A DNA stretch of 64,000 nucleotides from a virus (Duplodnaviria > Caudoviricetes). The stretch covers positions 224,001 to 288,000 of the IMG/VR virus record IMGVR_UViG_3300015050_001523; one strand, 5' to 3'. Positions 27-15,510 of this stretch are shown one piece after another; positions within the stretch are counted from its first letter, which is position 1, and each line of letters begins with the position of its first letter. Position numbers and translations under genes: made by a program. A model generated the notes under the pieces. The model was given only the letters and a program-made list of their open reading frames with translations, had not been told where the DNA came from and made no database searches.

Positions 27-1955
27 ATGGACTTCACAAAAAAATCATTTCCACAAATTACTAGAATAGAAATTCCTAAAGACACTCAAATAATTTGGGT
101 AAGCGATCTCTTTGTTGAAGATTATGTTGGTGGAGCAGAATTAACATCTGAAGCTTTGATTCAATCAAGTCCATTGAATATTTTTAAACTTCATTCAAAA
201 GATGTAACAATGGATTTATTACAAGAAGGCCAAGATAAGTTTTGGATTTTCGGGAATTTCTTTAATCTTGATCTCAACATTATCCCAGCAATTGTAGTTA
301 ATATGAAATATTCAATTATTGAATATGATTATAAATTCTGTAAGTACAGATCTCCAGAAAAACATGAAATGCAAGAAAAGACTCCTTGTAATTGTTCAAA
401 TGAAGATCATGGCAAATTAATTGCTGCATTTTATTTGGGTTCAAAGCATCTTTGGTGGATGAGCGAAAAACAGATGGAAATTTACCATAATAAATTTCCA
501 TCTTTAAAAGAAAATAAAAACACAGTTCTTTCTTCTGTTTTTGATGATAAAACCCTTGCTACAATTAAATTACTAAGAGAAAATGCAAAAGAAAAAAATA
601 GAAAAGGATGGATTGTACTTGGTAGTAATTCATGGATAAAGGGATTTGAAGATGCGAAAGAGTATTGTGAAAATAATCATTTGGATTATAAGGTTTTGTG
701 GAATCTTCCTTACGAGGTCGTCTTACAGGAATTATCTGAGGCAGAAGGGCACGTATATTTTCCAAGAGGAAATGACACATGTCCAAGAATGGTCATCGAA
801 GCAAAGCTTTTAGGCACTAAACTAATCCTGAACGATTTCGTGCAGCATAAAGACGAAGAATGGTTCAATCCAAAAGCTGACGAAGATGACGAAATAACAC
901 AAATAGAACAATATCTTTACGCTGCACGAGATTGGTTTTGGAATGGAGTAAAATCTGATATTGATTATGTTCCAACAATTTCTGGGTATACAACAACAAG
1001 AAATTGTATATCTCAAAATTATCCATTTGAATCTTCAATATTGTCTTTATTAGATTTTTGTGATGAAGTTGTTGTAATGGATGGTGGCTCTTCTGATGGA
1101 ACCTATCAATTATTAAAAGAATGGGAACAAAAAGAACCAAAATTAAAAATCTATAGTGCAGAATTAGATTGGAATTCCAAAAGATTCGCTATTTTTGATG
1201 GAATGTTGAAGTCTATGGCTAGAGAGAAATGTTCTATGGATTTTTGTTGGCAAAGTGATGTTGATGAAGTGATTCATGAAGATCATATTGAAAAAATCCA
1301 TAAGCTTGTTAAGAATTTTCCTTCAAATGTTGATTTACTTGCCCTTCCAGTGATAGAGTATTGGGGAGGAAAAGATAAGATTAGAATGGATATAAATCCA
1401 TGGAAATGGAGATTGTCGAGAAATAAAAAATATATATGCCATGGAGTTCCTGGGCATTTGAGAGTACAAGATGGTAACGAATATTATTCTAAAATGGGGA
1501 GCGATGGTTGCGACTATATTCATCGAGATACATTAGATTTGATTCCTTTTGCTAACTTTTATACAGCGGAACATGAATTAGCAAGACGCCAATCTTTAAA
1601 AGGTGAACCAATTAAAGAAAATTATCAAACTTGGTTTAATCTTGTTGTTGAAAATCTTCCGTGTGTATACCATTTTTCATGGTGGGATATTGAAAGAAAA
1701 ATAAAAACATATAAAAATTATTGGCAAAGACATTGGGAAAGTCTTTTTAATATTGAAACTGAAGATAATTCAGAGAATAACAAATTTTTTAATAAACCAT
1801 GGTCAGAAGTTTCAGATGAAGAAATAAAAGAAAAGGCAATTGAATTATCTGAAAAAACTGGCGGGTGGATTTTTCATGACAAATGGAATGGACAAACTTT
1901 GCCACATCTAACAATAGAAAAAGACATGCCAAAATATATAAAAAATTGGGTCTAA
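27..1955 (+). CDS. Two-domain glycosyltransferase (N-terminal GT-B-like + C-terminal GT2/GT-A)
   Basis: N-terminal half ends in a GT-B-like donor motif (PRGNDTCPRMVIEAKLLG). C-terminal half has GT2 hallmarks (TTTRNC, DEVVVMDGGSSDGT, DVDE). Confidence 0.8.
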   Translation: MDFTKKSFPQITRIEIPKDTQIIWVSDLFVEDYVGGAELTSEALIQSSPLNIFKLHSKDVTMDLLQEGQDKFWIFGNFFNLDLNIIPAIVVNMKYSIIEYDYKFCKYRSPEKHEMQEKTPCNCSNEDHGKLIAAFYLGSKHLWWMSEKQMEIYHNKFPSLKENKNTVLSSVFDDKTLATIKLLRENAKEKNRKGWIVLGSNSWIKGFEDAKEYCENNHLDYKVLWNLPYEVVLQELSEAEGHVYFPRGNDTCPRMVIEAKLLGTKLILNDFVQHKDEEWFNPKADEDDEITQIEQYLYAARDWFWNGVKSDIDYVPTISGYTTTRNCISQNYPFESSILSLLDFCDEVVVMDGGSSDGTYQLLKEWEQKEPKLKIYSAELDWNSKRFAIFDGMLKSMAREKCSMDFCWQSDVDEVIHEDHIEKIHKLVKNFPSNVDLLALPVIEYWGGKDKIRMDINPWKWRLSRNKKYICHGVPGHLRVQDGNEYYSKMGSDGCDYIHRDTLDLIPFANFYTAEHELARRQSLKGEPIKENYQTWFNLVVENLPCVYHFSWWDIERKIKTYKNYWQRHWESLFNIETEDNSENNKFFNKPWSEVSDEEIKEKAIELSEKTGGWIFHDKWNGQTLPHLTIEKDMPKYIKNWV

Positions 1956-1968
1956 CATGTGATAATAT

Positions 1969-2745
1969 TTGTCGATGTCAAATAGATTTGTATTTGTAGT
2001 TCCCTGCTTCAACGCAGAAAAAACGATTGAAAGAATGCTTATGAGCGTTTTCCTTCAAACTTATGATAATTGGCTTATCTTAATTGCTGATGATATGAGC
2101 ACTGATAGAACAATCTCAAAAATTCAAGAAACTTGTATGAGATTTAATGTTCCTTGGCAGAATTATGAATATGAACTCGGTCGTAATATTTGGCTAAATG
2201 AAAAAAAGGTTCTTTATTGGAAAAACAATGAAAAACATTGGGAAGTTAAAAATGTTCTCAAGATGATTAATTCAGAAGTTGTAAAGGACAATGATATTAT
2301 TTGTCGTCTTGATGGGGATGATTTCCTTTGTAATCTTTGCGCTCTTAAAGATATCAATTTTGCTTATAATGAAACAAATGCCGAATGTCTTTGGACAGCT
2401 CATCGATGGTCAGATACATGGCAAAATATTTCAGATGCTTTGCCTGTTGATGCGAATGTCTACGAGTACAGATGGGTAACATCTCATTTTAAAACATTTA
2501 GAAAAAATTTGATTACAGATGTAAATGATGAAAATTTCCGTGGAATGGATGGAGAATATATAAAAAGAGCTGGAGATCAGGCAATTTATCTTCCTGTTTT
2601 ACATAAATCAAAAAGAAGAGTATTCCTCCCAACTGTAACGTATTATTATACAATAAATCTAAGCCCAGAAACATTCAAATCAGAAGATGCAAAATTTCAA
2701 TTAGAAGAGTCCAATTATTTGCGTAAAAGAGGCTATGTAGAGTAG
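1969..2745 (+). CDS. Family 2 glycosyltransferase
   Basis: FVVPCFNAEKTIERML, LIADDMSTD and a DxD motif (RLDGDD). Confidence 0.9.
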   Translation: MSMSNRFVFVVPCFNAEKTIERMLMSVFLQTYDNWLILIADDMSTDRTISKIQETCMRFNVPWQNYEYELGRNIWLNEKKVLYWKNNEKHWEVKNVLKMINSEVVKDNDIICRLDGDDFLCNLCALKDINFAYNETNAECLWTAHRWSDTWQNISDALPVDANVYEYRWVTSHFKTFRKNLITDVNDENFRGMDGEYIKRAGDQAIYLPVLHKSKRRVFLPTVTYYYTINLSPETFKSEDAKFQLEESNYLRKRGYVE

Positions 2746-2755
2746 GAGTTTATAG

Positions 2756-3082
2756 ATGAAATATATATATTTTCATAATGCTATTTTTAATAAAGGACGT
2801 CATCTAACAATTAGAAAAGGATCCAAATGGTATCAATCAATTTCTCAAGGAGAAATTTTAACTCTTGTAGATATGGAGACTGGTGGAAGTTCTAAAACAG
2901 CAAAAGTTCTAAGAATAGAAGTAATGAATTTTCAAGATATTCCTGAAGATATTCTTAAATTGTCGTTAAATCCCGAATGTAAAACAAAAAAGGGTCTTTT
3001 GAATAATATGAAAAGTATATATTTGGACTTTAGCCCTGAAAAAGATGAAGTTAGTTTGATTTTTTTTGAGATTAATGAATAA
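2756..3082 (+). CDS. ASCH/PUA-like domain protein
   Basis: LTIRKG...GEILTL...AKVLRIEVMNFQDI...IY...DEVSLIFFE pattern fits the ASCH fold. Confidence 0.55.
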   Translation: MKYIYFHNAIFNKGRHLTIRKGSKWYQSISQGEILTLVDMETGGSSKTAKVLRIEVMNFQDIPEDILKLSLNPECKTKKGLLNNMKSIYLDFSPEKDEVSLIFFEINE

Positions 3083-3109
3083 AACCTTTTAAATACAAGG
3101 AATTAAAAT

Positions 3110-4057
3110 ATGAAAATATATTTTGATAATGTTGCTTTCTCTTCTTCTTCAGGTCCAAATTCATTTGGAAAAAGATTATCTGATCAATTTATTAAAATGG
3201 GACATGAAATTGTAAAAGATGGAGAAGAACATGATGTTTTTTTGTCCTTTATTCAAAGAAATAAAATCCCATATAAAAATGCCAAAACTGTTTTGCGACT
3301 TGATGGAATCTGGTTTAAGCCAGAAAATTTTGAAGAAAATAATAAAAAAATAAAAGAAGCTTATTTGTCTTATGATTATGTTATTTTCCAAAGTTATTTT
3401 GATAAGGCAATGATGGAAAAACATTTTGGAGAGAGAGAAGGATGCTCAGTAATCCATAATGGAATAGAGATTACTAAAAAAAATATTATTCATCAAATAA
3501 AACATTCAAATGAGAAGATCTTTGTTTGTTCTGCTAATTGGCATCCTCAAAAAAGACTAAAAGAAAATATTGATTTATTTAATCAAATAAGAAAAAAATT
3601 AAATAAAGATGGAGAAGATGCACGCCTTTATATTTTAGGAATGTGCCATGATATTGAAAATATAAACATTGATAGTTTTGATAATGTATTTTATTTGGGA
3701 CATCAAAATCATGAAACATGTTTAAGATTTTATGCAACCGCTGATTATTTTATACATCTAGCATGGTTGGACCATTGTCCAAATGTAGTAGTAGAAGCCT
3801 TATCTCAAGGATGCCCAGTAATTTGTACAGATAGTGGCGGAACTAAAGAAATAGTAAGAAATTCGGGAATAATTATCCCAGAAACGAAACCATATAATTT
3901 TGAATTAACAGATTATGATTGTCCTTATAATGTTGATTTTTCAACATTTGAATTACCTAAATTAAGGCCAATTGTAAATTCAGAATATCTTGAGATCAGC
4001 AAAGTTGCTGAAAATTATATAAATGTATTTAAAGGAATAAAATATGCAATCACCTGA
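3110..4057 (+). CDS. GT4-type (GT-B) glycosyltransferase
   Basis: ADYFIHLAWLDHCPNVVVEALSQGCPVICTDSGGTKE motif; VIHNG. Confidence 0.88.
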   Translation: MKIYFDNVAFSSSSGPNSFGKRLSDQFIKMGHEIVKDGEEHDVFLSFIQRNKIPYKNAKTVLRLDGIWFKPENFEENNKKIKEAYLSYDYVIFQSYFDKAMMEKHFGEREGCSVIHNGIEITKKNIIHQIKHSNEKIFVCSANWHPQKRLKENIDLFNQIRKKLNKDGEDARLYILGMCHDIENINIDSFDNVFYLGHQNHETCLRFYATADYFIHLAWLDHCPNVVVEALSQGCPVICTDSGGTKEIVRNSGIIIPETKPYNFELTDYDCPYNVDFSTFELPKLRPIVNSEYLEISKVAENYINVFKGIKYAIT

Positions 4058-4307
4058 ACAATTAAGAGACGATAAATATAGATCAATACTTCAATTTGAA
4101 ACAAAAAAATTGAAAAATTTAATAAAAATTCAAGAAAGAATGATGCTTCTTATGTCATGTCTTGAATTTGATAAAGAAAATGAAGAAGAAGAGAGTGAAG
4201 AATATGAAGATGAGGATGGGAATGGAGAAAGCCCAATACATAGTGAATTATTTACATTGATGGAACTCTATAAAGTAATTATTAGTAAAGTTGGACCTGA
4301 ATATTAG
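4044..4307 (+). CDS. Small acidic hypothetical protein
   Basis: Fills the gap between two GT genes with coupled ends; E/D-rich tract. Confidence 0.55.
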   Translation: MQSPEQLRDDKYRSILQFETKKLKNLIKIQERMMLLMSCLEFDKENEEEESEEYEDEDGNGESPIHSELFTLMELYKVIISKVGPEY

Positions 4308-5207
4308 ATGGAAAAATTGTTAGTAAATAGGAAGCCTGTAGATGGTCCTTGGGGCGGCGGGAATTTATTTGTTCGAGCCTTATGTGAAAATGCGCCACTT
4401 TATGGCTATGAAATAACTCATAAAATAGAACCAGGCATAAAAAAAATAGTTTTAGTTGACCCGCGATATGATGAACTTGGTATCTCTGCAAAGGAAATTC
4501 TTGAATATAAAAAGAAAAATCCAAATGTAAAAGTTTTGCATAGAGTAAATGAATGTGATGCAAGAAAATCTACAAAGGACATAGATCATTTATTAAAAGA
4601 ATGTTTTGATCTAATAGATGATAAAATTGTTTTTATTTCTTCATGGCTTAAGGATTACCATTCTTTAAGTTCAGATAATCAATCTGTAATCTATAATGGA
4701 ACAAATAATAAATGGCATTATCAAAGTAATAATAAAAATAACAATCAGAAAATTAAAATTTTAGTTCATCATTGGAGCGATAATATAATGAAGAACAAAT
4801 TCACTCATAAAATTGATGAATTTGTTGGGAAAAATTCAGATAAGTATGAATTTACTTATATTGGAAGAGCGCCAGCAGGATTAAATCATACAAAAGTTAT
4901 AAACCCTTTATTTGGTCAGGAACTTGGAGAAGAATTAAGAAAACATGATGTCTATATTAATAGTTCTTTATGGGATCCTGCTCCAAATTCCATAACAGAA
5001 GCATTGGCAGTAAATTTACCAACTTATGTATACAAGGATGCTGGTGGGGCTTGTGAAATGGTTGGAGAAGACCATGTTTATTCTAGTTGGGAAGATTTAG
5101 AGTCATTGCTTCTTGGCAGAATTTTTGAAAAAAATAAAAATGCCATACAAATAAATGATTGGTCAAAACAAATAGAAAGTTATTTTGAAATTCTAGATGC
5201 ATTATGA
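4308..5207 (+). CDS. GT4-type glycosyltransferase
   Basis: GPWGGGN N-terminus; HDVYINSSLWDPAPNSITEALAVNLP...GGACE motif. Confidence 0.85.
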   Translation: MEKLLVNRKPVDGPWGGGNLFVRALCENAPLYGYEITHKIEPGIKKIVLVDPRYDELGISAKEILEYKKKNPNVKVLHRVNECDARKSTKDIDHLLKECFDLIDDKIVFISSWLKDYHSLSSDNQSVIYNGTNNKWHYQSNNKNNNQKIKILVHHWSDNIMKNKFTHKIDEFVGKNSDKYEFTYIGRAPAGLNHTKVINPLFGQELGEELRKHDVYINSSLWDPAPNSITEALAVNLPTYVYKDAGGACEMVGEDHVYSSWEDLESLLLGRIFEKNKNAIQINDWSKQIESYFEILDAL

Positions 5208-5938
5208 AAGGTGCGATTATAGGAACTGGATATTGGGGAAAGAAATTATATAAATTTTTCCCCAAAGAAAGTATTATTGGCTATATTAATAATGGAAATT
5301 CTTTAATTCCCGAATTAAACAAAATCTCTTTTGAAGAGGCATTAGATAAAGTTGATTATTTTATAATAAGTTGCCCAATAGAGCATTTGTCAAAATACGG
5401 AATAATGGCACTTGAAAATAATAAACATATATTTATAGAGAAACCAGGTTCAATTGATATTGACGATCTTCAAAAGATGATTGATTTATCAAAAAAAAAT
5501 AATTTGGTTTCCTTAGTAAATTATAAATTTATAAAAGATTCAAACATTCAAAAAATAAATAATTCTTCTATAATCAGTTTAGAATGGAATAAATATGGTT
5601 CATTTAATAATGATATTAAGTTAAACTTATTGACTCATCATCTAGCTGTATTTATATTTATTTATGGAATAAACAATATTGGTGTTTTTGCACAAGAAGA
5701 TAAATTAACTTGTGAATTTGGAAAGATTGCAATATCCAAAATTGACAGAACAATTAAAGATAAAGATAATCATTTTCATAGAATTTATAATAATGGAAAA
5801 TACCATCATATGGATTCTGATGATGTTCTTATGGCTAAGCAAGTATATGACTTTTTTAATTCAATAAAATTAGGAAAGTCACCTGAATGCGATCTTTGTT
5901 TGAGTTTGGATGTATTGAGATTAATTTATGAAATATAA
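5204..5938 (+). CDS. Gfo/Idh/MocA-family NAD(P)-dependent oxidoreductase
   Basis: GAIIGTGYWG Rossmann motif and HIFIEKP motif. Confidence 0.85.
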   Translation: MKGAIIGTGYWGKKLYKFFPKESIIGYINNGNSLIPELNKISFEEALDKVDYFIISCPIEHLSKYGIMALENNKHIFIEKPGSIDIDDLQKMIDLSKKNNLVSLVNYKFIKDSNIQKINNSSIISLEWNKYGSFNNDIKLNLLTHHLAVFIFIYGINNIGVFAQEDKLTCEFGKIAISKIDRTIKDKDNHFHRIYNNGKYHHMDSDDVLMAKQVYDFFNSIKLGKSPECDLCLSLDVLRLIYEI

Positions 5939-6974
5939 AATAGCTGTTATAGGTGGTGGAATATTCGGAATAACATCTGCTTTATTTCTAGATCAAAAAG
6001 GTCATGATGTTTATTTATTTGAAAAAAATGAATCGTTACTAACAGAAGCCTCATTTGGTAATCAGTTTAGATTGCATAGAGGCTATCATTATCCAAGAAG
6101 TCCAAAAACTGTTTCTAATTTATTAAAAAGCTCAATTGAATTTGAAAAATTTTATGACTTAGCAATAAAAAAAGATTGCGAACATTATTATTGTATTGCA
6201 AGTTCAAATAGTCTTATAACTCCAAATAATTATTTGAAATTTTGTGATGAAAATAATCTTGAATATGAAATTGTAAAAAATGCTGATTTTGTAAAAAATG
6301 TTGATTTAACTATTAAAGTTAAAGAAAACTTAATAGATTATCAAATTTTAAAATTATTATGTTATAAAAAAATAACATCTTCACAAATAAAAACTAGATT
6401 TAATACTAGATTTAAAAAATCAAATATTCTAGATTTTGATATTGTTGTTAATTGCTCTTATAAAGATATAAATTTTATTTCAGAATCAGTTAAGAACTAT
6501 CAATATGAGTTATGTGAAAAGATAATGGTAAAAGTGCCTGACTCTTTATCTAATAAGAGCATTGTTATTATGGATGGCCCATTTATGTGTATTGATCCAT
6601 TCGCAAAACCTAATTTTTCTCTTTTGGGAAATGTTGTTCATGCAATTCATTCATCAAATACTGGGGTGCAAGCTATTATTCCTAATGAATATGAAAAATA
6701 TTTGCAAAATATAGAATATTCTGAATCGATAAAAATCGATAAAAAATCAAACTTTGATAAATTTATTGAAACAGGTAAAGTTTACATCCCAGATATGGAA
6801 AAAATAGAATATATAGGTTCGAAAATGGTAGTTAGGGCTGTACTTCCAAATGTTGAAAAAACTGATGAAAGACCAACAATTGTAACAATGAAAGATAATA
6901 TTATTGATGTTTTTTCTGGTAAGATCGATACTTGTATCTCGGCTGCAAGGTCCGTAATTTCATATTTAGAGTAA
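5928..6974 (+). CDS. FAD-dependent oxidoreductase
   Basis: IAVIGGGIFG, LFEK, ASFGNQFRLHRGYHYPRS, C-terminal SGKID. Confidence 0.85.
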   Translation: MKYKIAVIGGGIFGITSALFLDQKGHDVYLFEKNESLLTEASFGNQFRLHRGYHYPRSPKTVSNLLKSSIEFEKFYDLAIKKDCEHYYCIASSNSLITPNNYLKFCDENNLEYEIVKNADFVKNVDLTIKVKENLIDYQILKLLCYKKITSSQIKTRFNTRFKKSNILDFDIVVNCSYKDINFISESVKNYQYELCEKIMVKVPDSLSNKSIVIMDGPFMCIDPFAKPNFSLLGNVVHAIHSSNTGVQAIIPNEYEKYLQNIEYSESIKIDKKSNFDKFIETGKVYIPDMEKIEYIGSKMVVRAVLPNVEKTDERPTIVTMKDNIIDVFSGKIDTCISAARSVISYLE

Positions 6975-7028
6975 ATTTTGTGATGATCTATAGTAAGTTA
7001 TACAGTTAGAGATGGAGCCTTCTAAGTT

Positions 7029-9001: not shown

Positions 9002-9016
9002 AGATGTAAAATAAAA

Positions 9017-9595
9017 ATGAAAATACCGGACAAATATACACATAAAGCAACAATAACAAATAAATTAAGAGAAGATTTAATTAATTTATCTAAAGAGATT
9101 GATAATAATTCATATCTTGAAATTGGCTTTGATAAAGGATTTACTATAGCATCTTTGGTTCCATATTTTAAATCAATCTATGGAATAGATATAAACAAAG
9201 ATAGGCATAATGAAGCAAATATTTTATTGTCAGAAAATAAGAATATAACTCTTATTTATGGAGACTCAACCAGTATTCCATTAGGTAGTTATAGTGTTAT
9301 TTTAATTGACGCAAATCATAGTTATAAAAATGTTTTGTTTGATACATATAACATTTTAGTAAAAAATATCAATGAAGAACCTTTTGCAATTGTTTATCAT
9401 GATTATGGACTTGTTGAAGCAGGAGTTAAGAAGTTTTGCGATCAATATTTTTTAGACTTTATGAAACCTGTAGGAGAAAAGTCTGGATGGAATCCTTTAG
9501 GCGGGAAAACAAATGATCAAGAAGCCATGGTTTGTGTATTTGATGCAGACCTAAAAGAAAAATATTTAGATATTTTTAAAGGAGTTTTAGAATGA
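9017..9595 (+). CDS. Class I SAM-dependent methyltransferase (Methyltransf_24-like)
   Basis: YLEIGFDKG (motif I), YGID, LIDANHSY, IVYHDYG. Confidence 0.8.
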   Translation: MKIPDKYTHKATITNKLREDLINLSKEIDNNSYLEIGFDKGFTIASLVPYFKSIYGIDINKDRHNEANILLSENKNITLIYGDSTSIPLGSYSVILIDANHSYKNVLFDTYNILVKNINEEPFAIVYHDYGLVEAGVKKFCDQYFLDFMKPVGEKSGWNPLGGKTNDQEAMVCVFDADLKEKYLDIFKGVLE

Positions 9596-10134
9596 CGTAC
9601 ATTGATTTGAATTCTATGTCAATAACAAATAAATTAAAAGATGATTTAATTAAATTTTCAAAAGGGTTTAAAAAGGCGTCTTTTCTTCAATTAGGGTTTG
9701 ATGAAAATTTTATTATATTGGATTTGGCTACACATTTTAAATCTTTGTATGGAATTGATGACAGTCAAGATTTATACAATCAAGGCACAAATATTATTAA
9801 TAAAAACAAAACAAAAAATATTATGATTTTTTGTGGAAATTCTACAAGAATTCCATTAAATCGATATGATGTTGTGCTTATAAATTCATCAAAAAGTGTA
9901 ATGACAGACACAATAAATGTATTTTCAAAAAACTTTAATAATGATCCATTTTTAATCATTTATAATGGATATAACTTTACAAATGATGTTAAGGTTTTCT
10001 GCGATGAGAACTTTAAAAATTTTATGATTCCTGTTGGAATAACAGATTCATCAGGACCTGAAGCTGTTGCTTGTGCATTTAATGGAGATACAAAGAAAAA
10101 ATATTTAAATTTGCTCAAAGAAAAAAACATATAA
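9592..10134 (+). CDS. Degenerate paralogue of the upstream methyltransferase
   Basis: Collinear with 9017..9595 (ITNKL.DDLI, GFD, FKSLYGID), but the SAM and DxxH motifs are altered. Confidence 0.7.
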   Translation: MTYIDLNSMSITNKLKDDLIKFSKGFKKASFLQLGFDENFIILDLATHFKSLYGIDDSQDLYNQGTNIINKNKTKNIMIFCGNSTRIPLNRYDVVLINSSKSVMTDTINVFSKNFNNDPFLIIYNGYNFTNDVKVFCDENFKNFMIPVGITDSSGPEAVACAFNGDTKKKYLNLLKEKNI

Positions 10135-10143: not shown

Positions 10144-11031
10144 ATGAAGGATATTATTGGAATAATAGGGCAGGGATTTGTAGGAAGTGCATTACGCAAA
10201 GGGATGGAAAAAACATGTGCAACATATGTTTATGATAAATTCAAAACAGAGTTACTTCAAAATGTTTCTGAAGTAGTAAACATGTTGCACCACCCAGAAT
10301 TAAAAGAAAAAGACAAAATAGTATTTGTATGTGTTCCAACTCCAATGTTTTCAAATGGAAAATGTGACATTTCAATTGTAGAGTCTGTTGTTAAAGAAAT
10401 TGATGAAGCTTCTTCTAAATTTAAACAAAAAACAATTGTTGTAATAAAGTCAACAATTCCGCCTGGAACTACAGAATATTTAGATAATGCCTTTGATAAT
10501 GTTAGTGTGATCTTTAATCCTGAATTTTTGAGAGAAGCTTCTCCTTTTGAAGATTTTATAAATCAAAATAGAATAATCCTTGGTGGAAAATTATCAACAA
10601 TTAAAAAAGTTGCAAATCTTTATCGTAATAGATTTCCAAATGTTCCAATTATTGGAATGGAATCAAAAGAAGCAGAAATGGTAAAGTATGTAACAAATTG
10701 CTTTCTTGCTACAAAAGTTAGCTTTGCAAATGAAATATTTCAAATTTGTAAAAAAATGGACATTTCATATGAGGGAGTTATTTCAGCGGCAATATATGAC
10801 GAAAGACTTGGAAAAAGTCATTGGTCTGTACCTGGACCTGATGGTTCTTTTGGGTATGGCGGACATTGCTTTCCAAAAGATCTTAATGCATTAACTTATA
10901 TGTCTAAAATGTTAGGAATAGAGCCTGTTATGTTAGGGGCTACATGGAAAAAGAATTTAGAAGTAAGAACCCCAGAAGAAAGAGATTGGGAAAAAATGAA
11001 AGGCCGAGCTGTTTCGATAGAGGGATTATAA
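10144..11031 (+). CDS. ugd: UDP-glucose/GDP-mannose 6-dehydrogenase family protein (short form)
   Basis: IGIIGQGFVG, FVCVPTP, IKSTIPPGTT, FNPEFLRE, EAEMVKY, catalytic GYGGHCFPKD. Confidence 0.85.
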   Translation: MKDIIGIIGQGFVGSALRKGMEKTCATYVYDKFKTELLQNVSEVVNMLHHPELKEKDKIVFVCVPTPMFSNGKCDISIVESVVKEIDEASSKFKQKTIVVIKSTIPPGTTEYLDNAFDNVSVIFNPEFLREASPFEDFINQNRIILGGKLSTIKKVANLYRNRFPNVPIIGMESKEAEMVKYVTNCFLATKVSFANEIFQICKKMDISYEGVISAAIYDERLGKSHWSVPGPDGSFGYGGHCFPKDLNALTYMSKMLGIEPVMLGATWKKNLEVRTPEERDWEKMKGRAVSIEGL

Positions 11032-11033: not shown

Positions 11034-11597
11034 ATGAGAAATGGATTAATTATTGATGAACATGGAGCCAAGAGATATTACTTAAATGACAAGCTTCATA
11101 GAGAAGACGGCCCTGCTGTTGAATGGAAAAATGGAAATAAATGGTGGTATCGCCATGGAAGACTTCATAGAGAGGATGGGCCTGCATTCGAAGAAGGTTG
11201 GGATGGATCCAAGTATTGGTATATAAATGGAGAACGTCATCGAGAAGATGGTCCTGCAATTGAATTTGCAAACGGAGTTAAGTTTTATTATTTAAATAAT
11301 ATTGAATATTCTGAAGAAGATTTTTGGGAAGAAATTAAAAAAAGAAAATCTCTTAATTTTATTCTCAAGAATTATTTCAAAACTAGAAGAACATTTAGCA
11401 ACATTTCATTTCCAATCGTTCGTCGAGTATTTAGCCAATTAATTCAAAAGGATTTTATAAGTATACAACCTATGGAGCTGCCATCAAGTATATTCTTCTT
11501 TGAATATACCTATGACAGTAATCCTTCTATAGATTCTTCAATTCAAGATAATAGTTGTGTTATAAATGAAACTGAAAACGTAAATATATGTTCTTGA
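11034..11597 (+). CDS. HREDGPA-repeat protein fused to a major-capsid-protein-derived segment
   Basis: Three HREDGPA repeats (11097, 11166, 11238). Segment 11394..11513 matches MCP 62232..62354. Start moved to ATG 11034 (after the ugd stop, GAGGG upstream). Confidence 0.8.
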   Translation: MRNGLIIDEHGAKRYYLNDKLHREDGPAVEWKNGNKWWYRHGRLHREDGPAFEEGWDGSKYWYINGERHREDGPAIEFANGVKFYYLNNIEYSEEDFWEEIKKRKSLNFILKNYFKTRRTFSNISFPIVRRVFSQLIQKDFISIQPMELPSSIFFFEYTYDSNPSIDSSIQDNSCVINETENVNICS

Positions 11598-11647: not shown

Positions 11648-12547
11648 ATGTATAGTCTTATAAACTGTGAAATAGATCAATGTTCAGTAGAGACTTTTGA
11701 TTTATATTTAAATAATGTTTGTAAAGATATTTCTTGTGAACAATTATTATATAATAATGGAAAAGATAGATGTATAAATACAATTTCATTTTCTGAATTA
11801 AAAGATCATGTAGAGTGTTCATATCGCCATAAATTAAAATACGTTGATAAAGTCAACATGTTCGAAGAAAATGTAAATACAAACTTTGGAACAGCGTTGC
11901 ATGAGGCATGTGAAACTTACCTAAAGACAAGAGAAATGAAATATGAATTGGCTCTGGACTATATTGTTCAGGCTTGGGAAAAACATAACCTGCCTGATCT
12001 TGGAAATTGGCTTAAAGAAGCTAATGCTTTGCTTGAGGCAGTACCAGAATTTTTAGATGAGAGATTTCCTGGATGGGAATGTTTTTCTGCTGAAGAAGAT
12101 TTGTTAGAAAAAATAGAAGGAGAACATTCTTTAGATTTTACATTTAAAGGGTTCATTGATGGAGTTATCAAGTGCAATGATCAATATACAATTATTGATT
12201 GGAAAACTTCTGGGAAAGGATGGAACAAATATAAAAAAGAAGATGAAAATCTTAAAATGCAATTAGTTCTTTATGCCAAATTTTGGGGGCAAAAGCATAA
12301 TATTCCACTTTCTAAAATTAGAGTAGGATTTGTAGTTTTAAATAGAGACTTAGAGAATCCTGAAAGAATAGAGTTTTTTTCATTTCCGATTGAAGAATCT
12401 GGAGTTAAAAAAACTTTAAATATATTAAATAATTCTCTAAACATGTCAAAAAAAGGCATGTATTTTAAACCTTGGAAATATAAAATTTCGTACCAACAGG
12501 GAAGTTGCAGGTTTTGTGATTATAATGAAACTCCTCATTGTCCGTAA
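11648..12547 (+). CDS. Solo Cas4-like / PD-(D/E)XK exonuclease with predicted Fe-S cluster
   Basis: ISFSEL...ECSYR, FGTALHE, GFIDGV...IIDWKT, QLVLYA, C-terminal CRFC...HC (1+3 Cys pattern). Confidence 0.82.
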   Translation: MYSLINCEIDQCSVETFDLYLNNVCKDISCEQLLYNNGKDRCINTISFSELKDHVECSYRHKLKYVDKVNMFEENVNTNFGTALHEACETYLKTREMKYELALDYIVQAWEKHNLPDLGNWLKEANALLEAVPEFLDERFPGWECFSAEEDLLEKIEGEHSLDFTFKGFIDGVIKCNDQYTIIDWKTSGKGWNKYKKEDENLKMQLVLYAKFWGQKHNIPLSKIRVGFVVLNRDLENPERIEFFSFPIEESGVKKTLNILNNSLNMSKKGMYFKPWKYKISYQQGSCRFCDYNETPHCP

Positions 12548-12562: not shown

Positions 12563-12943
12563 ATGACAGATAGAGATTTTATTTATTGGCTTCACGGATA
12601 TTTTGAAATATCTGAAAACTTAACTTTGAGTAATGAACAAATTTATATGATTAAAAAACATATAAGCCTTGTCCAAAAAGAAAGAAAAAACTTCTCAGAC
12701 CATAGCACTGTTATTGAATGGATTAATGAAAAAATACATAATTGGGATAATTTAGCTAATAATGATTTGAAATTGGCGATTGTAACTGAGATATCGAATA
12801 AACTTAATCTTGTAATGGCAAGAATTGCTATAGATTCTTTTGTTTTCCAAAGTCAACAATCTTCAGAAACCTTTTTTAAAAGCAATAAATCAATTTCTTC
12901 CAACTCTGTTGATTCGGAGATAATAACTCATATAACTTGTTAA
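12563..12943 (+). CDS. Hypothetical phage protein
   Basis: Clean ORF with AAGGA RBS; N-terminal DFIYWLHGYFEI motif. Confidence 0.6.
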   Translation: MTDRDFIYWLHGYFEISENLTLSNEQIYMIKKHISLVQKERKNFSDHSTVIEWINEKIHNWDNLANNDLKLAIVTEISNKLNLVMARIAIDSFVFQSQQSSETFFKSNKSISSNSVDSEIITHITC

Positions 12944-12966: not shown

Positions 12967-14244
12967 GTGAAAAAAAAGAAAATTTTATTTATCTCGGACC
13001 ACCCTCTTTCTACGTCAGGAGTCGGAACCCAGTCGCGTTACCTTATAGAAGGACTTCTACGAACAGGGAAATACCAATTTAAATGTTTAGGAGCCGCAAT
13101 TAAGCATGGCGACTATCGAATGGTAAGTGTTCCAGCAAATCCAGATGATCCAAAAAAGTGGGATGATGGAGATTGGCTAATTAGGCCAATTGATGGATTT
13201 GGAGATAAAAATTTAATGAGGCTTTTGTTGGCACAAGAAAAACCAGATGCAGTTTTTTTGTTTACTGATCCAAGGTTTTTTATGCAGCACTTTGAAATTG
13301 AAGATGAAATTCATCAAGTTTGTCCAATTGTATGGTGGCATGTTTGGGATAATGATCCTTGGCCAGCATACAATAAGCCAATTTATGATAGCATCGACCT
13401 AATCAATTGTCATAGTAATAAAACTTATGAAATGACGGTAGAGCATTATCCTGAAATTACAAACTTTATTCCACATGCTGTACCTCCTGAAATTTTTCAT
13501 CCACTAAAAGAACAAGAGATAATCAAGGCAAAAGAAAATGTATTAGGTGCTGACAAAAAGAATCATTTTGTTGCATTTTGGATAAATAGAAATGCTAGAC
13601 GAAAATTGCCTGCCGATCTTATTGAAGCATGGAGCATGTTCTTAGATCAATTAGAAAAAGAATATGGACATAGAGATGCAACATTGTTAATGCATACAGA
13701 TCCATTAGATCAAGAAGGTCCAAATTTATTTAAAATTGTTGAGCATTTTAATTTGACTAAAAATGTTGTTTTCTCAACTGAACGAATAGGATTCCCTCAA
13801 ATCAACATTATGCATAATATTGCTGATACTTGCATCAATTTTGCATATAATGAAGGTTTTGGATTGGGAACTTTGGAATCTATGATGACAGGCACTCCAA
13901 TAATTGCACTAAAGACTGGAGGCTTGACTAGACAAGTTGAAGACTATAGAGACGGAAGCCACAATGGAATAGCTCTAGAGTCTGAAATAAGAAGATTGGT
14001 TGGAAGTCAGTCTGTTCCATACATTTATGAAGATCACGTATCAAATAAGACAGTGGCAGATGCTATTATGAAGATGTATGAATTCGGACCTGAAAAAAGA
14101 AAAGAACTTGGACAAAAAGCTTTAGCATATGCTAAATTTGAGTTTAATATTGATAACACAATAAAAAATTGGGACAAAACATTATTTGAAACAATTGAAA
14201 ATTGGAAAACTAGAAGAGGCATGTGGGAATGTCAAAAGGTTTAA
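12967..14244 (+). CDS. GT4-type glycosyltransferase
   Basis: GTG start with AAAGG RBS; SDHPLSTSGVGTQ, NRNARRK, NEGFGLGTLESMMTGTPII. Confidence 0.9.
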   Translation: MKKKKILFISDHPLSTSGVGTQSRYLIEGLLRTGKYQFKCLGAAIKHGDYRMVSVPANPDDPKKWDDGDWLIRPIDGFGDKNLMRLLLAQEKPDAVFLFTDPRFFMQHFEIEDEIHQVCPIVWWHVWDNDPWPAYNKPIYDSIDLINCHSNKTYEMTVEHYPEITNFIPHAVPPEIFHPLKEQEIIKAKENVLGADKKNHFVAFWINRNARRKLPADLIEAWSMFLDQLEKEYGHRDATLLMHTDPLDQEGPNLFKIVEHFNLTKNVVFSTERIGFPQINIMHNIADTCINFAYNEGFGLGTLESMMTGTPIIALKTGGLTRQVEDYRDGSHNGIALESEIRRLVGSQSVPYIYEDHVSNKTVADAIMKMYEFGPEKRKELGQKALAYAKFEFNIDNTIKNWDKTLFETIENWKTRRGMWECQKV

Positions 14245-14259
14245 AATAAGGGATTTATT

Positions 14260-15510
14260 ATGAAAAAGAAAGTAATATTGCGTGCTCCACTTCTAACCCA
14301 GTCAGGATATGGAGTTCATTCACGTCAAATTTTTAGGTGGCTTGAATCAAATATAGAAAAATTTGAAACATTTGTAAATGTTGTTCCATGGGGAAATACA
14401 ACTTGGTTTATCGATCCAGATCGATTAAATGGGCTTATTGGAAGAATAATGAACAAAAGTGGTAATTACCCATCAAGTTTTGATATTTCAATTCAAGTAC
14501 AGTTGCCAAATGAATGGGATTCTAATTTGGCAAGATTCAATGTTGGAGTAACAGCAGCAGTTGAAACTGATAAGGCAAATCCTGCATGGGCTTATAATGT
14601 AAAGTCTATGGACTTAGTAATTGTTCCTTCTGAACATGCAAAGTTATCTCTAACAAATTCAGGATGTTCAGAGGCAAAAATTAAAGTTGTTCCTGAAGCC
14701 TTTATTGATGAAATTCTAAATGAAGAAAAAAATGATCTAAATTTAGAATTTGAGACAAATTTTAATTTTCTTATATTTGGCCAATTTACTGGCAATAATG
14801 AAGAAAATGATAGAAAGAATACATATAATACTCTAAAATGGATTTGTGAATCATTTAAGAATGATAAAGATGTTGGAATTGTAATTAAAACAAATTTTTC
14901 TAGAAATTGCCAATTTGATAGAAATATAACAAAAGATATTCTTAAAAATACATTAAGCAAATTTAGAGACGAGAGAAAGTTGCCTCCAGTTTATTTTATC
15001 CATGGAGAGATGAGTGACAAGGAAATCGCTTCCCTATATGTCCATCCAAAAATAAAAGCACTTGTGTCACTTACAAGGGGAGAAGGATTTGGACTTCCAA
15101 CTCTGGAAGCTGCGGCATCAGGACTTCCTGTAATCGCTACAAATTGGTCTGGCCATCTTGATTTTATGAATAAGGGAAAATTTTTAGGAGTTGATTATTC
15201 ATTAAAAGAAATTTCAAGTTCAAGAGTAGACAAAAGAATATGTCCTTCATGCAATGGTTCTGGAAAAAATGGACATATTCAAATATGCAGCATTTGCGGA
15301 GGAACAGGGCACACTCAGATATTTATGGAAGGTTCAAAATGGGCGGAACCAAAAGAGATTTCTGCTAAAAAAATTCTAAAAAAATTCAGAGAGATGCCAA
15401 ATGCCCCTAAAGAATGGGCAGTTGAGCTTTCGACTATTATTAGAAAAGAATATTCACAAGATGCTATCGAAAAGCATTATGATCGAGTATTCTCTGATAT
15501 AGTCGTATGA
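14260..15510 (+). CDS. GT4-type glycosyltransferase with DnaJ-type zinc-finger insertion
   Basis: SGYGVHSR, TRGEGFGLPTLEAAASGLPVIATNWSGH; CPSCNGSG...CSICGGTG insert. Confidence 0.88.
   Translation: MKKKVILRAPLLTQSGYGVHSRQIFRWLESNIEKFETFVNVVPWGNTTWFIDPDRLNGLIGRIMNKSGNYPSSFDISIQVQLPNEWDSNLARFNVGVTAAVETDKANPAWAYNVKSMDLVIVPSEHAKLSLTNSGCSEAKIKVVPEAFIDEILNEEKNDLNLEFETNFNFLIFGQFTGNNEENDRKNTYNTLKWICESFKNDKDVGIVIKTNFSRNCQFDRNITKDILKNTLSKFRDERKLPPVYFIHGEMSDKEIASLYVHPKIKALVSLTRGEGFGLPTLEAAASGLPVIATNWSGHLDFMNKGKFLGVDYSLKEISSSRVDKRICPSCNGSGKNGHIQICSICGGTGHTQIFMEGSKWAEPKEISAKKILKKFREMPNAPKEWAVELSTIIRKEYSQDAIEKHYDRVFSDIVV

What the first reader, a model, noticed from the sequence alone, without database searches (positions are those of the whole stretch)
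27..15510. Complete sugar-modification island placed directly in front of the late sigma and virion genes
Seen: seven glycosyltransferase genes (eight GT domains, GT-B and GT-A), gmd, a ugd-type dehydrogenase, Gfo/Idh/MocA and FAD oxidoreductases and methyltransferases, co-oriented and mostly coupled. The island is followed at once by the gp55-like sigma and the baseplate operon. Established: virion glycosylation by virus-encoded GTs is known in chloroviruses, mimiviruses and some actinobacteriophages. Inference: this island builds a multi-sugar, possibly O-methylated, glycan for the virion itself. No Wzx/Wzy/GtrAB-type membrane genes (host surface conversion) and no base-hydroxymethylase (DNA glucosylation) were seen in the window.
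Basis: partly seen in the sequence, partly recalled or inferred. Interest (0 to 1): 0.72.

Follow-up and report, generated by a model that had tools for sequence, protein, structure and literature searches.

The report
Phage glycan island with swappable cassette
A 15.5-kb block in a 322-kb uncultured T4-like freshwater phage holds all seven of its sugar-transferase genes; three deeply conserved ones frame a swappable set of sugar-making genes that most likely coats the phage's own tail and head proteins with a strain-specific glycan, but no chemistry has tested this.

Summary
Window 27-15510 holds seven glycosyltransferase (GT) genes with eight GT domains, plus gmd, a short ugd-like dehydrogenase, two oxidoreductases and two methyltransferase paralogues. 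The genes are co-oriented and tightly packed. These are the only Pfam GT1/GT2 hits in the 322-kb genome.

The island is composite:
- **Conserved frame.** Three GT families (27-1955, 12967-14244, 14260-15510) each have thousands of metagenomic relatives at 50% identity or more, and they frame the island.
- **Variable middle.** Genes 1969-10134 differ in almost every relative, and the island is 15.5-28 kb long.

The phage's own virion proteins are the best-supported target (about 0.5):
- The whole genome has no membrane export genes and no DNA-hydroxylating entry enzyme.
- Published LC-MS of a cultured relative with the GT pair reports no sugar-bearing nucleoside.
- Hosts of GT-pair phages span three phyla.
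- Strong [S/T]GS enrichment in virion proteins tracks GT 14260-15510 in 4 of 4 carriers against 0-1 proteins in 4 non-carriers.
- The two terminal GTs are predicted to form a heterodimer.

Nothing is shown chemically, and expression timing is unknown. "Complete" is overstated: there is no sugar-activating enzyme and no 4-keto reductase in the island. The scan also noted a gmd/fcl plus two-GT4 cluster beside sigma and tail genes in another genome.

The parts
27..1955 (+). Conserved left-edge bifunctional glycosyltransferase (642 aa): GT-B domain at residues 18-315, GT-A/GT2 domain at 315-630 with a D411-x-D413 motif.
   Evidence: Pfam GT2. 2344 homologues, with the top 120 at 54% identity or more. 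Model pLDDT 87. GT-B Z 15-17. For the GT-A domain the best Foldseek hits are the peptide glycosyltransferases SunS/ThuS, E 2e-9. It holds the same left-edge position after a PhoH/PIN gene in two relatives.
1969..2745 (+). Cassette GT2 (258 aa).
   Evidence: PF00535 E 3e-10. Homologue in only 1 of 18 related loci.
2756..3082 (+). Unknown 108-aa ORF in the cassette.
   Evidence: Only a weak ASCH match, E 0.022.
3110..4057 (+). Cassette GT4 (315 aa).
   Evidence: PF00534 E 8e-18. Shared only with the nearest relative L022.
4044..4307 (+). Unknown 87-aa ORF.
   Evidence: No family above threshold.
4308..5207 (+). Cassette GT4 (299 aa), with no canonical EX7E motif at the expected site.
   Evidence: PF13692/PF00534 just above cut-off. 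Motif scan. No homologue in 18 related loci.
5204..5938 (+). Short Gfo/Idh/MocA-type NAD(P) oxidoreductase (244 aa). Candidate sugar keto-reductase or dehydrogenase.
   Evidence: PF01408 E 3e-9. Weak UDP-GlcNAc 3-dehydrogenase match. The function is inferred.
5928..6974 (+). FAD/NAD(P)-binding oxidoreductase (348 aa). Not a recognisable UDP-galactopyranose mutase.
   Evidence: Only the N-terminal Rossmann part matches: DAO E 3e-10, PDB hits to residues 4-57.
7029..7955 (+). Cassette GT4 (308 aa) with an EX7E motif (E232-E240).
   Evidence: PF13692 E 4e-11. Motif.
7952..9001 (+). GDP-mannose 4,6-dehydratase (gmd).
   Evidence: PF16363 396 bits over the full length. TIGR01472 394.6 bits.
9017..10134 (+). 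Two tandem methyltransferase paralogues (192 and 180 aa). Candidate sugar O-methyltransferases.
   Evidence: Methyltransf_24 E 1.6e-5. The two are 42% identical. The substrate is inferred.
10144..11031 (+). Short nucleotide-sugar dehydrogenase (295 aa). It has the NAD-binding and central domains with a GGHCFPKD catalytic-Cys motif, and no C-terminal UDP-binding domain. It belongs to the conserved frame.
   Evidence: PF03721 and PF00984 only. TIGR03026 positions 46-295 of 413. Sequence. Forms of 295 and 289 aa in relatives.
11034..11597 (+). HREDGPA-repeat mini-gene carrying a fragment of the major capsid protein. An insertion, not a sugar gene.
   Evidence: Gp23 N-terminal match E 1.7e-5. Absent at this position in L022/L023, where the dehydrogenase abuts the nuclease.
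11648..12547 (+). PD-(D/E)XK nuclease. A conserved neighbour of the GT pair; its role in the island is unknown.
   Evidence: PF12705 E 1e-22. Syntenic in immuto, Mel-JY01, LR756508 and most uncultured relatives.
12563..12943 (+). Unknown 126-aa ORF.
   Evidence: phrog_28500 E 4e-7, unknown function.
12967..14244 (+). Conserved GT4 (425 aa), first of the pair. EX7E motif at E296-E304.
   Evidence: PF00534. 6816 homologues, with the top 120 at 56% identity or more. Present in all related loci that have enough flank, and in immuto, Mel-JY01, RM378 and LR756508. Sequence hit to chlorovirus GT B736L.
14260..15510 (+). Conserved GT4 (416 aa), second of the pair. EX7E motif at E275-E283. Carries a lineage-specific double CxxCxGxG zinc-finger insert.
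   Evidence: PF00534. 3841 homologues, with the top 120 at 49% identity or more. The insert occurs only in the three nearest sequences. Model pLDDT 87; best PDB hit is chlorovirus NY-2A B736L, E 1e-14. Predicted heterodimer with 12967-14244.
15507..15821 (+). Small protein with one N-terminal TM helix.
   Evidence: Translation, TM scan. Homologues in the two nearest relatives.
15879..16796 (+). Divergent sigma-like protein (305 aa). Context only, not part of the island.
   Evidence: Sigma70_r2 E 0.021, below cut-off. phrog_351 E 5e-4. Atlas score 0.98 to a cluster named as a sigma-factor family, in which 21% of members carry Sigma70_r2. Conserved after the GT pair in 16 relatives.
16774..25971 (+). 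Start of the baseplate module: 130 aa, 466 aa, gp25-like, gp6-like 614 aa, 504 aa, and a 1172-aa Laminin_G_3 protein. The last two are rich in [S/T]GS. Context and candidate acceptors.
   Evidence: PHROG baseplate wedge hits. Laminin_G_3. [S/T]GS counts of 5 against 0.7 expected and 12 against 1.7 expected.

Best explanation
The island is a cytoplasmic, lipid-carrier-independent system that glycosylates the phage's own virion proteins. It is laid out like an O-antigen locus, with a conserved frame around a swappable middle.

Conserved frame. It comprises the bifunctional GT-B/GT-A enzyme (27-1955), the short nucleotide-sugar dehydrogenase (10144-11031) and a heterodimer-forming GT4 pair (12967-14244 and 14260-15510). 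These parts recognise a conserved, phage-encoded acceptor and lay down the invariant base of the glycan. The acceptor is most likely Ser/Thr in exposed [S/T]GS motifs of baseplate, fibre, sheath-like and capsid proteins.

Variable cassette (1969-10134). One GT2, three GT4, gmd, a Gfo/Idh/MocA plus flavin oxidoreductase pair and two methyltransferase paralogues extend the base with strain-specific sugars. Here these are probably a 6-deoxyhexose derived from host GDP-mannose, possibly O-methylated. Host metabolism supplies the activated precursors.

Shown: gene content, conservation pattern, synteny, absences, motif co-occurrence, and the predicted heterodimer.
Inferred: the acceptor, the sugars, the order of action, and expression timing.
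For: 1. All GT genes of the genome sit here. None of the island enzymes (27-15510) has a TM segment; only the small flanking ORF 15507-15821 does. The genome has no Wzx/Wzy/WecA-sized membrane protein.
2. The three GT families are core genes. They have 2344, 6816 and 3841 homologues, with the best 120 at 54%, 56% and 49% identity or more, many on 200-375-kb contigs. In 14260-15510 the acceptor-side N-domain holds 36 of 79 invariant residues. Two homologues of 27-1955 carry inteins.
3. The GT pair occurs in phages of Flavobacterium, Microcystis and Rhodothermus. These hosts span three phyla, so a shared host-surface acceptor is unlikely.
4. The entry enzymes for DNA glycosylation are absent: PF00303, PF12851 and PF00145. 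Both hydroxymethyl- and 5-hydroxy-cytosine routes need a thymidylate-synthase homologue (PMC13326640). LC-UV-MS/MS of virion DNA from immuto_2-6A, which carries the pair, found dA, dC, dT and fdPreQ1 only (PMC10516641).
5. Proteins with 4 or more [S/T]GS motifs at 3 times expectation or more: own 8, immuto 9, Mel-JY01 11, RM378 3 (all carry 14260-15510), against T4 0, P-HM2 1, LR756511 0, LR756508 0. LR756508 has the closest capsid protein (46-50% identity), and its ortholog enrichment is 1.6 against 3.9 for the own counterparts. It keeps the nuclease and the first GT but lacks 14260-15510.
6. The order GT pair, sigma-like gene, baseplate is conserved and tightly packed in 16 relatives.
7. Complex prediction for the GT pair gave a score of 0.82, with the best of 3 controls at 0.00. 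The mark was reached by 58 of 80 solved complexes and 2 of 110 mismatched pairs; these counts hold only roughly because my own alignments were used. Runs agree in 96% of contacts or more, and partner pLDDT is 88 or more.
8. The best fold matches are virus or protein-directed GTs: chlorovirus B736L, and the SunS/ThuS peptide GTs. This is a lead only.
9. The cassette differs in each relative: carbamoyl- and sulfotransferase, a heptose-like pathway, or aminotransferases. Its GC is 28.6% against 31.5-31.8% in the frame. Such diversity fits a surface-exposed glycan under diversifying selection.
Against: - There is no chemical or proteomic evidence for a glycan on any virion of this clade.
- Soluble GTs also build lipid-linked O-antigen and capsule units that host flippases export, so the lack of phage membrane genes is weak evidence.
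- In immuto, Mel-JY01 and RM378 the GT pair is not next to structural genes.
- [S/T]GS could be a structural turn motif of one clade's fibre proteins. The co-occurrence rests on eight phages that are not independent, and only the structural regions of the two huge phages were scanned.
- The fold matches are generic GT-A and GT-B. T4 DNA alpha-glucosyltransferase scores Z 15.3, within the same tie group.
- The PD-(D/E)XK nuclease kept beside the pair is unexplained and would also fit a DNA-directed role.
- Expression timing is unknown.
Confidence: 0.5

Rival explanations
1. Host-envelope remodelling. The island makes or alters a lipid-linked host polysaccharide (O-antigen, capsule or S-layer glycan) and uses host carriers and exporters. 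Possible purposes are blocking superinfection or changing the infected cell's surface, as proposed for the 'LPS' gene clusters of cyanomyovirus P-SSM2.
For: The gene content (GT2/GT4, gmd, dehydrogenase, methyltransferases) is typical of O-antigen and capsule loci, and JGI names homologues 'glycosyltransferase involved in cell wall biosynthesis'. The P-SSM2 precedent is in PMC1079782. Cassette hypervariability would also fit tracking of host serotypes. Cytoplasmic GTs need no TM segment.
Against: The three frame GTs are conserved at 50% identity or more across thousands of phages, and the pair occurs in phages of three host phyla. That is hard to reconcile with host-specific lipid-linked acceptors. 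The genome has no initiating phosphoglycosyl transferase, flippase, polymerase or ligase. This reading does not explain the [S/T]GS co-occurrence. The phage appears lytic and T4-like, so the benefit of surface conversion is unclear.
Confidence: 0.2
2. DNA hypermodification. The GTs attach mono- or oligosaccharides to a modified base in phage DNA to evade restriction, as in T4 (glucosyl-hmC), RB69 and DLP3 (arabinosyl-5hoC) or the TET-linked glycosyl-5hmC viruses.
For: Phage DNA GTs can be GT4-like GT-B enzymes that sit in clusters with nucleotide-sugar genes (PMC13326640; bioRxiv 10.1101/2023.12.21.572611). T4 alpha-glucosyltransferase is among the GT-B fold matches at Z 15.3. A PD-(D/E)XK nuclease is conserved beside the pair. 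PF20706 'GT4-conflict' gives weak hits.
Against: The 93%-complete genome has no thymidylate-synthase-family enzyme (the control rang in 10 of 14 genomes), no C5-cytosine methyltransferase and no TET/JBP, although the TET control was silent; it also has no DpdA/TGT. The virion DNA of immuto, which carries the pair, contains only dA, dC, dT and fdPreQ1 (PMC10516641). Seven GTs with eight domains and O-antigen-like cassette diversity exceed any known DNA glycan.
Confidence: 0.06
3. Another phage-directed acceptor. The conserved GTs glycosylate a non-structural phage or host protein, an RNA, or a small molecule, or they make a free or secreted oligosaccharide. Under this reading the virion motif enrichment is coincidental.
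For: The acceptor has not been observed. Chlorovirus B736L, the best fold match, also has no known acceptor (PMC9614988). The genome is rich in RNA-biology genes (earlier scan notes). Many GT4 enzymes act on small molecules, for example BshA, MshA and GlgM among the hits.
Against: The size and diversity of the cassette suggest a polymeric, exposed product. The synteny with the baseplate module and the motif co-occurrence would be left unexplained.
Confidence: 0.14

Closest known systems
Mycobacteriophage virion glycosylation (Freeman et al. 2023, Cell Host Microbe; as summarised in PMC12619734)
   Same: Phage-encoded cytoplasmic GTs decorate the phage's own capsid and tail proteins. The GT genes lie beside structural genes. 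The proposed role is shielding of the virion surface.
   Different: In mycobacteriophages there are one or two GTs, with glycans at the C-termini of the capsid and tail-tube subunits. Here there are seven GTs plus sugar-tailoring enzymes in a 15-28-kb cassette locus, a dispersed internal [S/T]GS motif, T4-like myoviruses of Gram-negative or cyanobacterial hosts, and no experimental proof.
Chlorovirus PBCV-1 capsid glycosylation (A064R, A061L, GMD, UGDH and others; PMC9614988)
   Same: The virus encodes multi-domain GTs, gmd, a UDP-glucose dehydrogenase and sugar O-methyltransferases. The glycan is built in the cytoplasm on a non-canonical sequon and contains methylated 6-deoxyhexose. The best PDB match of 14260-15510 is the chlorovirus GT B736L.
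   Different: PBCV-1 is a eukaryotic giant virus with N-linked glycans on Asn. Its GT genes are scattered rather than arranged as a flanked cassette. Sequence identity to B736L is only about 13%.
'LPS' gene clusters of cyanomyovirus P-SSM2 (PMC1079782)
   Same: [quoted passage not shown]
   Different: Those clusters have no reported conserved GT frame, and they were proposed to alter the host surface. The GT 14260-15510 has no homologue in cyanomyoviruses in the phage collection at E 1e-5 or better and none was found in P-HM2's [S/T]GS profile context.
GtfA-GtfB O-glycosyltransferase of serine-rich repeat adhesins, with Gtf3/GtfC (own knowledge; Gtf3/GtfC structures are among the fold matches)
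   Same: Two adjacent GT-B genes form a hetero-complex that primes Ser residues of Ser-rich proteins in the cytoplasm, and further soluble GTs then extend the glycan. The two conserved GT4 proteins here are predicted to bind each other.
   Different: There is no detectable sequence relationship beyond the GT-B fold. Both phage proteins keep the EX7E catalytic motif, whereas GtfB is non-catalytic. The acceptors are virion proteins with isolated tripeptides, not long Ser repeats.
O-antigen and capsule loci flanked by conserved genes (own knowledge)
   Same: A hypervariable set of GT and sugar-pathway genes sits between conserved flanks, which permits cassette exchange by recombination. The cassette has lower GC than the flanks.
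   Different: Those loci include Wzx/Wzy or ABC exporters and an initiating transferase. This phage genome has none.
Moraphages, aquatic jumbo phages with four core GT orthogroups (PMC12619734)
   Same: Aquatic jumbo phages with T4-type structural genes, a sigma factor, Bacteroidota hosts, and several GTs in the core genome whose function is left open among DNA, host and virion targets.
   Different: Whether this phage belongs to that lineage was not tested, because no sequences were compared. That paper does not describe the flanked-cassette layout, the motif link or a GT heterodimer.

Membership tests
GT4 / Glycos_transf_1 (GT-B, retaining) | Pfam PF00534/PF13692 above the gathering score | tested here: met
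   Five genes pass.
GT4 / Glycos_transf_1 (GT-B, retaining) | EX7E motif in the C-terminal domain | tested here: met
   Present in 7029-7955, 12967-14244 and 14260-15510. Not found at the expected place in 3110-4057 and 4308-5207.
GT2 (GT-A, inverting) | PF00535 above cut-off and a DxD motif | tested here: met
   27-1955 scores 27.2 bits with D411-x-D413 and a GT-A fold at Z 12-15.6. 1969-2745 scores 40.7 bits with D107-x-D109.
GDP-mannose 4,6-dehydratase | Full-length match to PF16363 and the equivalog model TIGR01472 | tested here: met
   PF16363 scores 396 bits over positions 1-332 of 332. TIGR01472 scores 394.6 bits, just under its 415-bit equivalog cut-off. No activity was assayed.
UDP-glucose/GDP-mannose 6-dehydrogenase | Three domains: NAD-binding, central with the catalytic Cys, and C-terminal UDP-binding (PF03720) | tested here: not met
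   The N and central domains and the GGHCFPKD motif are present. The protein ends at model position 295 of 413, so it has no C-terminal domain. The short form is conserved in relatives. It works like, but is not, a canonical member.
Phage DNA glycosylation systems (T4, RB69/DLP3, TET-linked) | An enzyme that creates the hydroxyl acceptor: a thymidylate-synthase homologue, or a C5-methyltransferase plus TET/JBP | tested here: not met
   PF00303 and PF00145 are absent with ringing controls. PF12851 is absent but its control was silent. The genome is 93% complete.
Phage DNA glycosylation systems (T4, RB69/DLP3, TET-linked) | Glycosylated nucleoside in virion DNA | not testable with these tools
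   Published LC-MS of the relative immuto_2-6A shows none (PMC10516641). There are no data for this phage.
Wzx/Wzy- or ABC-dependent surface polysaccharide pathway | Initiating phosphoglycosyl transferase, flippase or polymerase, or ABC-2 permease (polytopic membrane proteins) | tested here: not met
   The hydropathy scan found only three small proteins (119-218 aa) with three or more TM segments in the whole genome, and none in the island. Host genes could substitute.
Virus-encoded virion glycosylation (mycobacteriophage or chlorovirus type) | Virus-encoded soluble GTs together with structural proteins that carry a recurrent candidate acceptor motif | tested here: met
   Seven soluble GTs. 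[S/T]GS is enriched 3- to 20-fold in individual virion proteins and tracks GT 14260-15510 across eight phages.
Virus-encoded virion glycosylation (mycobacteriophage or chlorovirus type) | Glycan chemically demonstrated on virion proteins | not testable with these tools
   This needs glycoproteomics or staining of purified virions.
T4 gp55-type late sigma (for the gene after the island) | Sigma-70 region 2 homology in a small phage protein that directs late promoters | tested here: inconclusive
   Sigma70_r2 E 0.021, below cut-off; phrog_351 E 5e-4; atlas score 0.98 to a cluster named as a sigma-factor family, in which 21% of members carry Sigma70_r2. At 305 aa it is longer than gp55. No promoter specificity has been shown.

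The most novel reading that the evidence does not exclude
An abundant clade of aquatic T4-like phages carries an O-antigen-like 'virion serotype' locus. A heterodimeric GT4 pair, plus a bifunctional GT-B/GT-A enzyme in the jumbo members, primes Ser/Thr of an [S/T]GS sequon on tail, baseplate and capsid proteins. An exchangeable 8-20-kb cassette of GTs and sugar-tailoring enzymes then builds a strain-specific glycan. This gives bacteriophage virions a variable sugar coat comparable to that of giant viruses.
Probability: 0.35. Interest if true: 0.8.

Novelty: new variant of a known kind. Interest (0 to 1): 0.62.

Why it matters
Virion glycosylation in phages is experimentally known only from actinobacteriophages with one or two GTs. 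If the reading is right, a large and globally abundant group of aquatic phages invests 5-8% of its genome in a modular glycan factory for its own particle. This group includes cultured Flavobacterium, Microcystis and Rhodothermus phages. The system would have a conserved priming complex, a simple candidate sequon and serotype-like cassette exchange.

That would change how adsorption, grazing or aggregation losses, particle stability and phage-phage or phage-defence recognition are thought about in water. It would also supply new soluble protein O-glycosyltransferases for glyco-engineering.

The question is directly testable because three relatives that carry the GT pair are in culture.

If the reading is wrong, the conserved GT trio still marks an unknown core function of this clade.

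Tried and rejected
- **Near-identical DNA in cultured phages:** none found.
- **Promoter timing.** ATATTTA is enriched upstream of head genes (12 of 30 late-region upstream segments against 10 of 192 elsewhere). In the island it occurs only twice near gene starts, which is within chance. The regions upstream of the GT pair and the sigma-like gene in 16 relatives are mostly coding and share no motif. The generic sigma-70 and terminator scan was at background level. The hairpin at 15548-15572 lies inside a TM-coding ORF. The temporal class therefore remains unknown.
- **Spacer upstream of 27.** A spacer is also present in two relatives (184 and 289 bp), but its sequence and the AGATCT boxes are not conserved.
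- **RNA evidence:** no RNA holder was listed among public runs.
- **Large-scale co-occurrence in IMG/VR.** The capsid profile returned 80 loci, but nearly all contigs are fragments (14-71% complete in the eight tested), so absence of the GT is uninformative.
- **TET/JBP search:** negative, but its control rang nowhere.
- **The ugd gene as a pseudogene truncated by the mini-gene:** rejected, because the same short form occurs in relatives that lack the mini-gene.
- **The FAD protein as UDP-galactopyranose mutase:** not supported, because only its Rossmann N-terminus matches anything.
- **The zinc finger of 14260-15510 as a family-wide substrate module:** rejected, because it is an insert in the three nearest sequences only.
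- **Freeman et al. 2023** could not be read, because it is not held.

Full report
**Setting.** The window is bases 224001-288000 of a 322,518-bp IMG/VR virus record, 93% complete by CheckV and about 30-33% GC. It has a T4-type major capsid protein (window 61998-63872). The nearest cultured relatives by capsid protein are:
- Flavobacterium phage vB_FspM_immuto (43-45% identity);
- Microcystis phage Mel-JY01 (32%);
- Rhodothermus phage RM378 (34-36%).

The huge uncultured phages LR756508 (46-50%) and LR756511 are also related. No near-identical DNA exists among cultured phages.

**Observation.**
- There are seven GT genes: two GT2 and five GT4.
- The other genes are gmd, a nucleotide-sugar dehydrogenase, a Gfo/Idh/MocA and an FAD-type oxidoreductase, and a methyltransferase whose downstream neighbour is a 42%-identical paralogue.
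- The claimed eighth GT domain exists. The model of 27-1955 (pLDDT 87) has a GT-B domain at residues 18-315 (Z 15-17) fused to a GT-A domain at 315-630.
- The genes are co-oriented, with gaps of -14 to +54 nt.
- All Pfam GT1/GT2 hits of the whole genome lie here. The chance of that is at most 2e-8.

Three corrections apply:
- The ugd-like protein is a conserved short form without the UDP-binding domain.
- The sugar genes are interrupted by a capsid-fragment mini-gene, a PD-(D/E)XK nuclease and small unknown ORFs.
- The genome has no sugar nucleotidyltransferase. Its two further SDR sugar enzymes lie elsewhere, beside DNA polymerase III alpha and IMP dehydrogenase. The island therefore depends on host precursors and is not 'complete'.

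**Anatomy: a conserved frame around a variable cassette.**
- *Right side of the frame.* Local tblastn against 18 related loci shows that the short dehydrogenase, the nuclease, both terminal GT4 genes, the sigma-like gene and the first baseplate genes form a conserved backbone.
- *Variable middle.* Genes 1969-10134 have almost no counterparts. A few are shared with the nearest relative and with one other locus.
- *Contents of the variable part elsewhere.* Relatives carry carbamoyl- and sulfotransferases, a heptose-like pathway with kinase, aldolase, transaldolase and cytidylyltransferase, or aminotransferases and an acetyltransferase-like gene.
- *Left side of the frame.* The first gene, 27-1955, is itself highly conserved: 2344 homologues, with the best 120 at 54% identity or more. 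In two 355-375-kb contigs it occupies the same left edge, directly after a PhoH/PIN gene.
- *Size and composition.* The cassette is framed on both sides by conserved GT genes. The island measures 15.5 kb here and 17.1 and 28.3 kb in those two relatives. The cassette has 28.6% GC against 31.5-31.8% in the frame.
- *Family sizes.* The two right-hand GT4 families have 6816 and 3841 homologues, with the best 120 at 56% and 49% identity or more.
- *Distribution.* The pair is also adjacent in immuto, Mel-JY01 and RM378, which lack 27-1955.

**What is the acceptor?**

*DNA is unlikely.*
- Every known route to glycosylated phage DNA starts from a thymidylate-synthase homologue (hydroxymethyl- or 5-hydroxy-pyrimidines; PMC13326640) or from a C5-methyltransferase plus TET (bioRxiv 10.1101/2023.12.21.572611).
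- The genome has none of these and no DpdA. The TET control was silent.
- Virion DNA of immuto_2-6A, which carries both GTs of the pair and its own sugar cassette, was analysed by LC-UV-MS/MS. It contains dA, dC, dT and fdPreQ1 only (PMC10516641).

*The host envelope is possible but strained.*
- The genome encodes no polytopic membrane protein of exporter or polymerase size, and none of the island enzymes has a TM segment. Host machinery could serve instead.
- The stronger argument is conservation. GTs with highly conserved acceptor-side domains are kept in phages whose recorded hosts belong to Bacteroidota, Cyanobacteria and Rhodothermus. This points to an acceptor that the phage brings with it.

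*Virion proteins fit best.* I recounted the [S/T]GS motif independently.
- In this genome it is concentrated in baseplate, fibre, sheath-like and capsid proteins, for example 12 observed against 1.7 expected in 22453-25971.
- Eight phages were counted for proteins with four or more motifs at three times expectation or more:

| Phage | Carries 14260-15510 | Proteins meeting the criterion |
|---|---|---|
| This phage | yes | 8 |
| immuto | yes | 9 |
| Mel-JY01 | yes | 11 |
| RM378 | yes | 3 |
| T4 | no | 0 |
| P-HM2 | no | 1 |
| LR756511 | no | 0 |
| LR756508 | no | 0 |

- LR756508 is the telling case. It has the closest capsid protein and keeps the nuclease and the first GT of the pair. It has lost, or never had, 14260-15510. 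Its orthologues of this phage's virion proteins show an enrichment of 1.6 where the own counterparts show 3.9.
- This agrees with the sibling finding e1-5319143. The sample is small, and only the structural regions of the two huge phages were scanned.

**How it may work.**
- *A GT4 heterodimer.* The two terminal GT4 proteins both keep the EX7E motif and are predicted to form a heterodimer. The score is 0.82, with the best of three controls at 0.00. The mark was reached by 58 of 80 solved complexes and 2 of 110 mismatched pairs; these counts are only rough because my own alignments were used. Runs agree in 96% of contacts or more, and partner pLDDT is 88 or more. The interface uses the last seven residues of the first protein, a tail that most aligned jumbo-clade homologues keep.
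- *A functional analogue.* Paired GT-B enzymes that prime Ser-rich proteins (GtfA-GtfB) are a functional analogue, recalled from my own knowledge. Membership is not claimed.
- *Fold matches.* The best solved match of 14260-15510 is chlorovirus GT B736L (E 1e-14). Its acceptor is also unknown (PMC9614988). The GT-A domain of 27-1955 matches the peptide glycosyltransferases SunS/ThuS best by Foldseek (E 2e-9). Both matches are leads only, because GT folds are generic, and T4 alpha-glucosyltransferase is in the same tie group.
- *Proposed order of action (inferred).* The frame enzymes build a conserved base on [S/T]GS. The cassette GTs extend it. gmd supplies a 6-deoxyhexose precursor from host GDP-mannose. 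The oxidoreductase pair and the two methyltransferase paralogues tailor it.

**Timing and position.**
- The order GT pair, sigma-like gene, baseplate is conserved and tightly packed in the jumbo relatives.
- The sigma assignment is weak. A late sigma must itself be made before late genes, so the island is more likely pre-late.
- A candidate late motif, ATATTTA, marks head genes but not the island.
- No transcript data exist.

**Comparison and novelty.**
- Phage and giant-virus virion glycosylation, phage 'LPS' islands and phage DNA glycan clusters are all known.
- A paper on aquatic 'moraphages' already reports several core GTs of open function (PMC12619734). Whether this phage belongs to that lineage was not tested.
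- What appears new is the flanked-cassette layout, the three deeply conserved GT families, the predicted GT4 heterodimer and the link to a simple candidate sequon.
- I rate it a new variant of a known kind. The function is supported by convergent indirect evidence only.
- Earlier scan notes record a gmd/fcl plus two-GT4 cluster beside sigma and tail genes in another genome (e1-5341265, e1-5341274). I did not check these.

Noticed in passing
window 11034-11597: An HREDGPA-repeat mini-gene carrying about 40 aa of the phage's own capsid protein is inserted between the short dehydrogenase and the PD-(D/E)XK nuclease. In relatives L022 and L023 these two genes abut, so this looks like a recent insertion into the conserved frame.
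   Followed up: partly
homologues P0131 and P0139 of window 27-1955; L067:11944-12618: Two homologues of the left-edge GT are about 1000 aa long because they carry inteins (LAGLIDADG and intein-splicing domains). In one relative a GIY-YIG endonuclease gene follows the GT. Selfish elements seem to target this highly conserved gene.
   Followed up: no
window 15241-15309 (residues about 328-350 of 14260-15510): The double CxxCxGxG zinc-finger insert is present only in this phage and its two closest relatives among 14 aligned family members. It is a recent lineage-specific insertion, not a family feature.
   Followed up: yes
window 10144-11031: The nucleotide-sugar dehydrogenase lacks the whole C-terminal UDP-binding domain but keeps the catalytic Cys motif. 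It is conserved at 289-295 aa in relatives. Whether it is active, or pairs with another protein, is unknown.
   Followed up: partly
window 43473, 53224, 58373, 58781, 59946, 61969; genome 289332-317566: ATATTTA lies 6-38 nt upstream of many head and neck genes, including the capsid gene. It occurs in 12 of 30 upstream segments in the late region against 10 of 192 elsewhere. It is a candidate late promoter element, different from T4's TATAAATA.
   Followed up: partly
genome 6305-11288 (L007): Two SDR nucleotide-sugar epimerase/dehydratase genes and an IMP dehydrogenase sit beside DNA polymerase III alpha, far from the island. In Mel-JY01 an IMP dehydrogenase gene sits right next to the GT pair.
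   Followed up: partly
LR756508.1 303690-306748 (L070): This huge phage keeps the PD-(D/E)XK nuclease and the first GT of the pair, but lacks the second GT and the left-edge GT. It shows no strongly [S/T]GS-enriched virion protein, which makes it a natural 'knock-out' for comparison.
   Followed up: partly
window 61998-63872, residues 151-207: All four [S/T]GS motifs of the capsid protein cluster in a 57-residue stretch.
   Followed up: no
genome 223859-224026 (upstream of window 27): The 168-bp AT-rich spacer with three AGATCT boxes has positional counterparts (184 and 289 bp) in two relatives, but no sequence conservation. It is more likely a promoter or regulatory gap at the island's start than a conserved origin.
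   Followed up: partly
genome 13554-14441 (L007): A Dam-type N6-adenine DNA methyltransferase is the only DNA-modification enzyme I met. No DpdA/TGT was found, unlike the relative immuto, which replaces dG by fdPreQ1.
   Followed up: no
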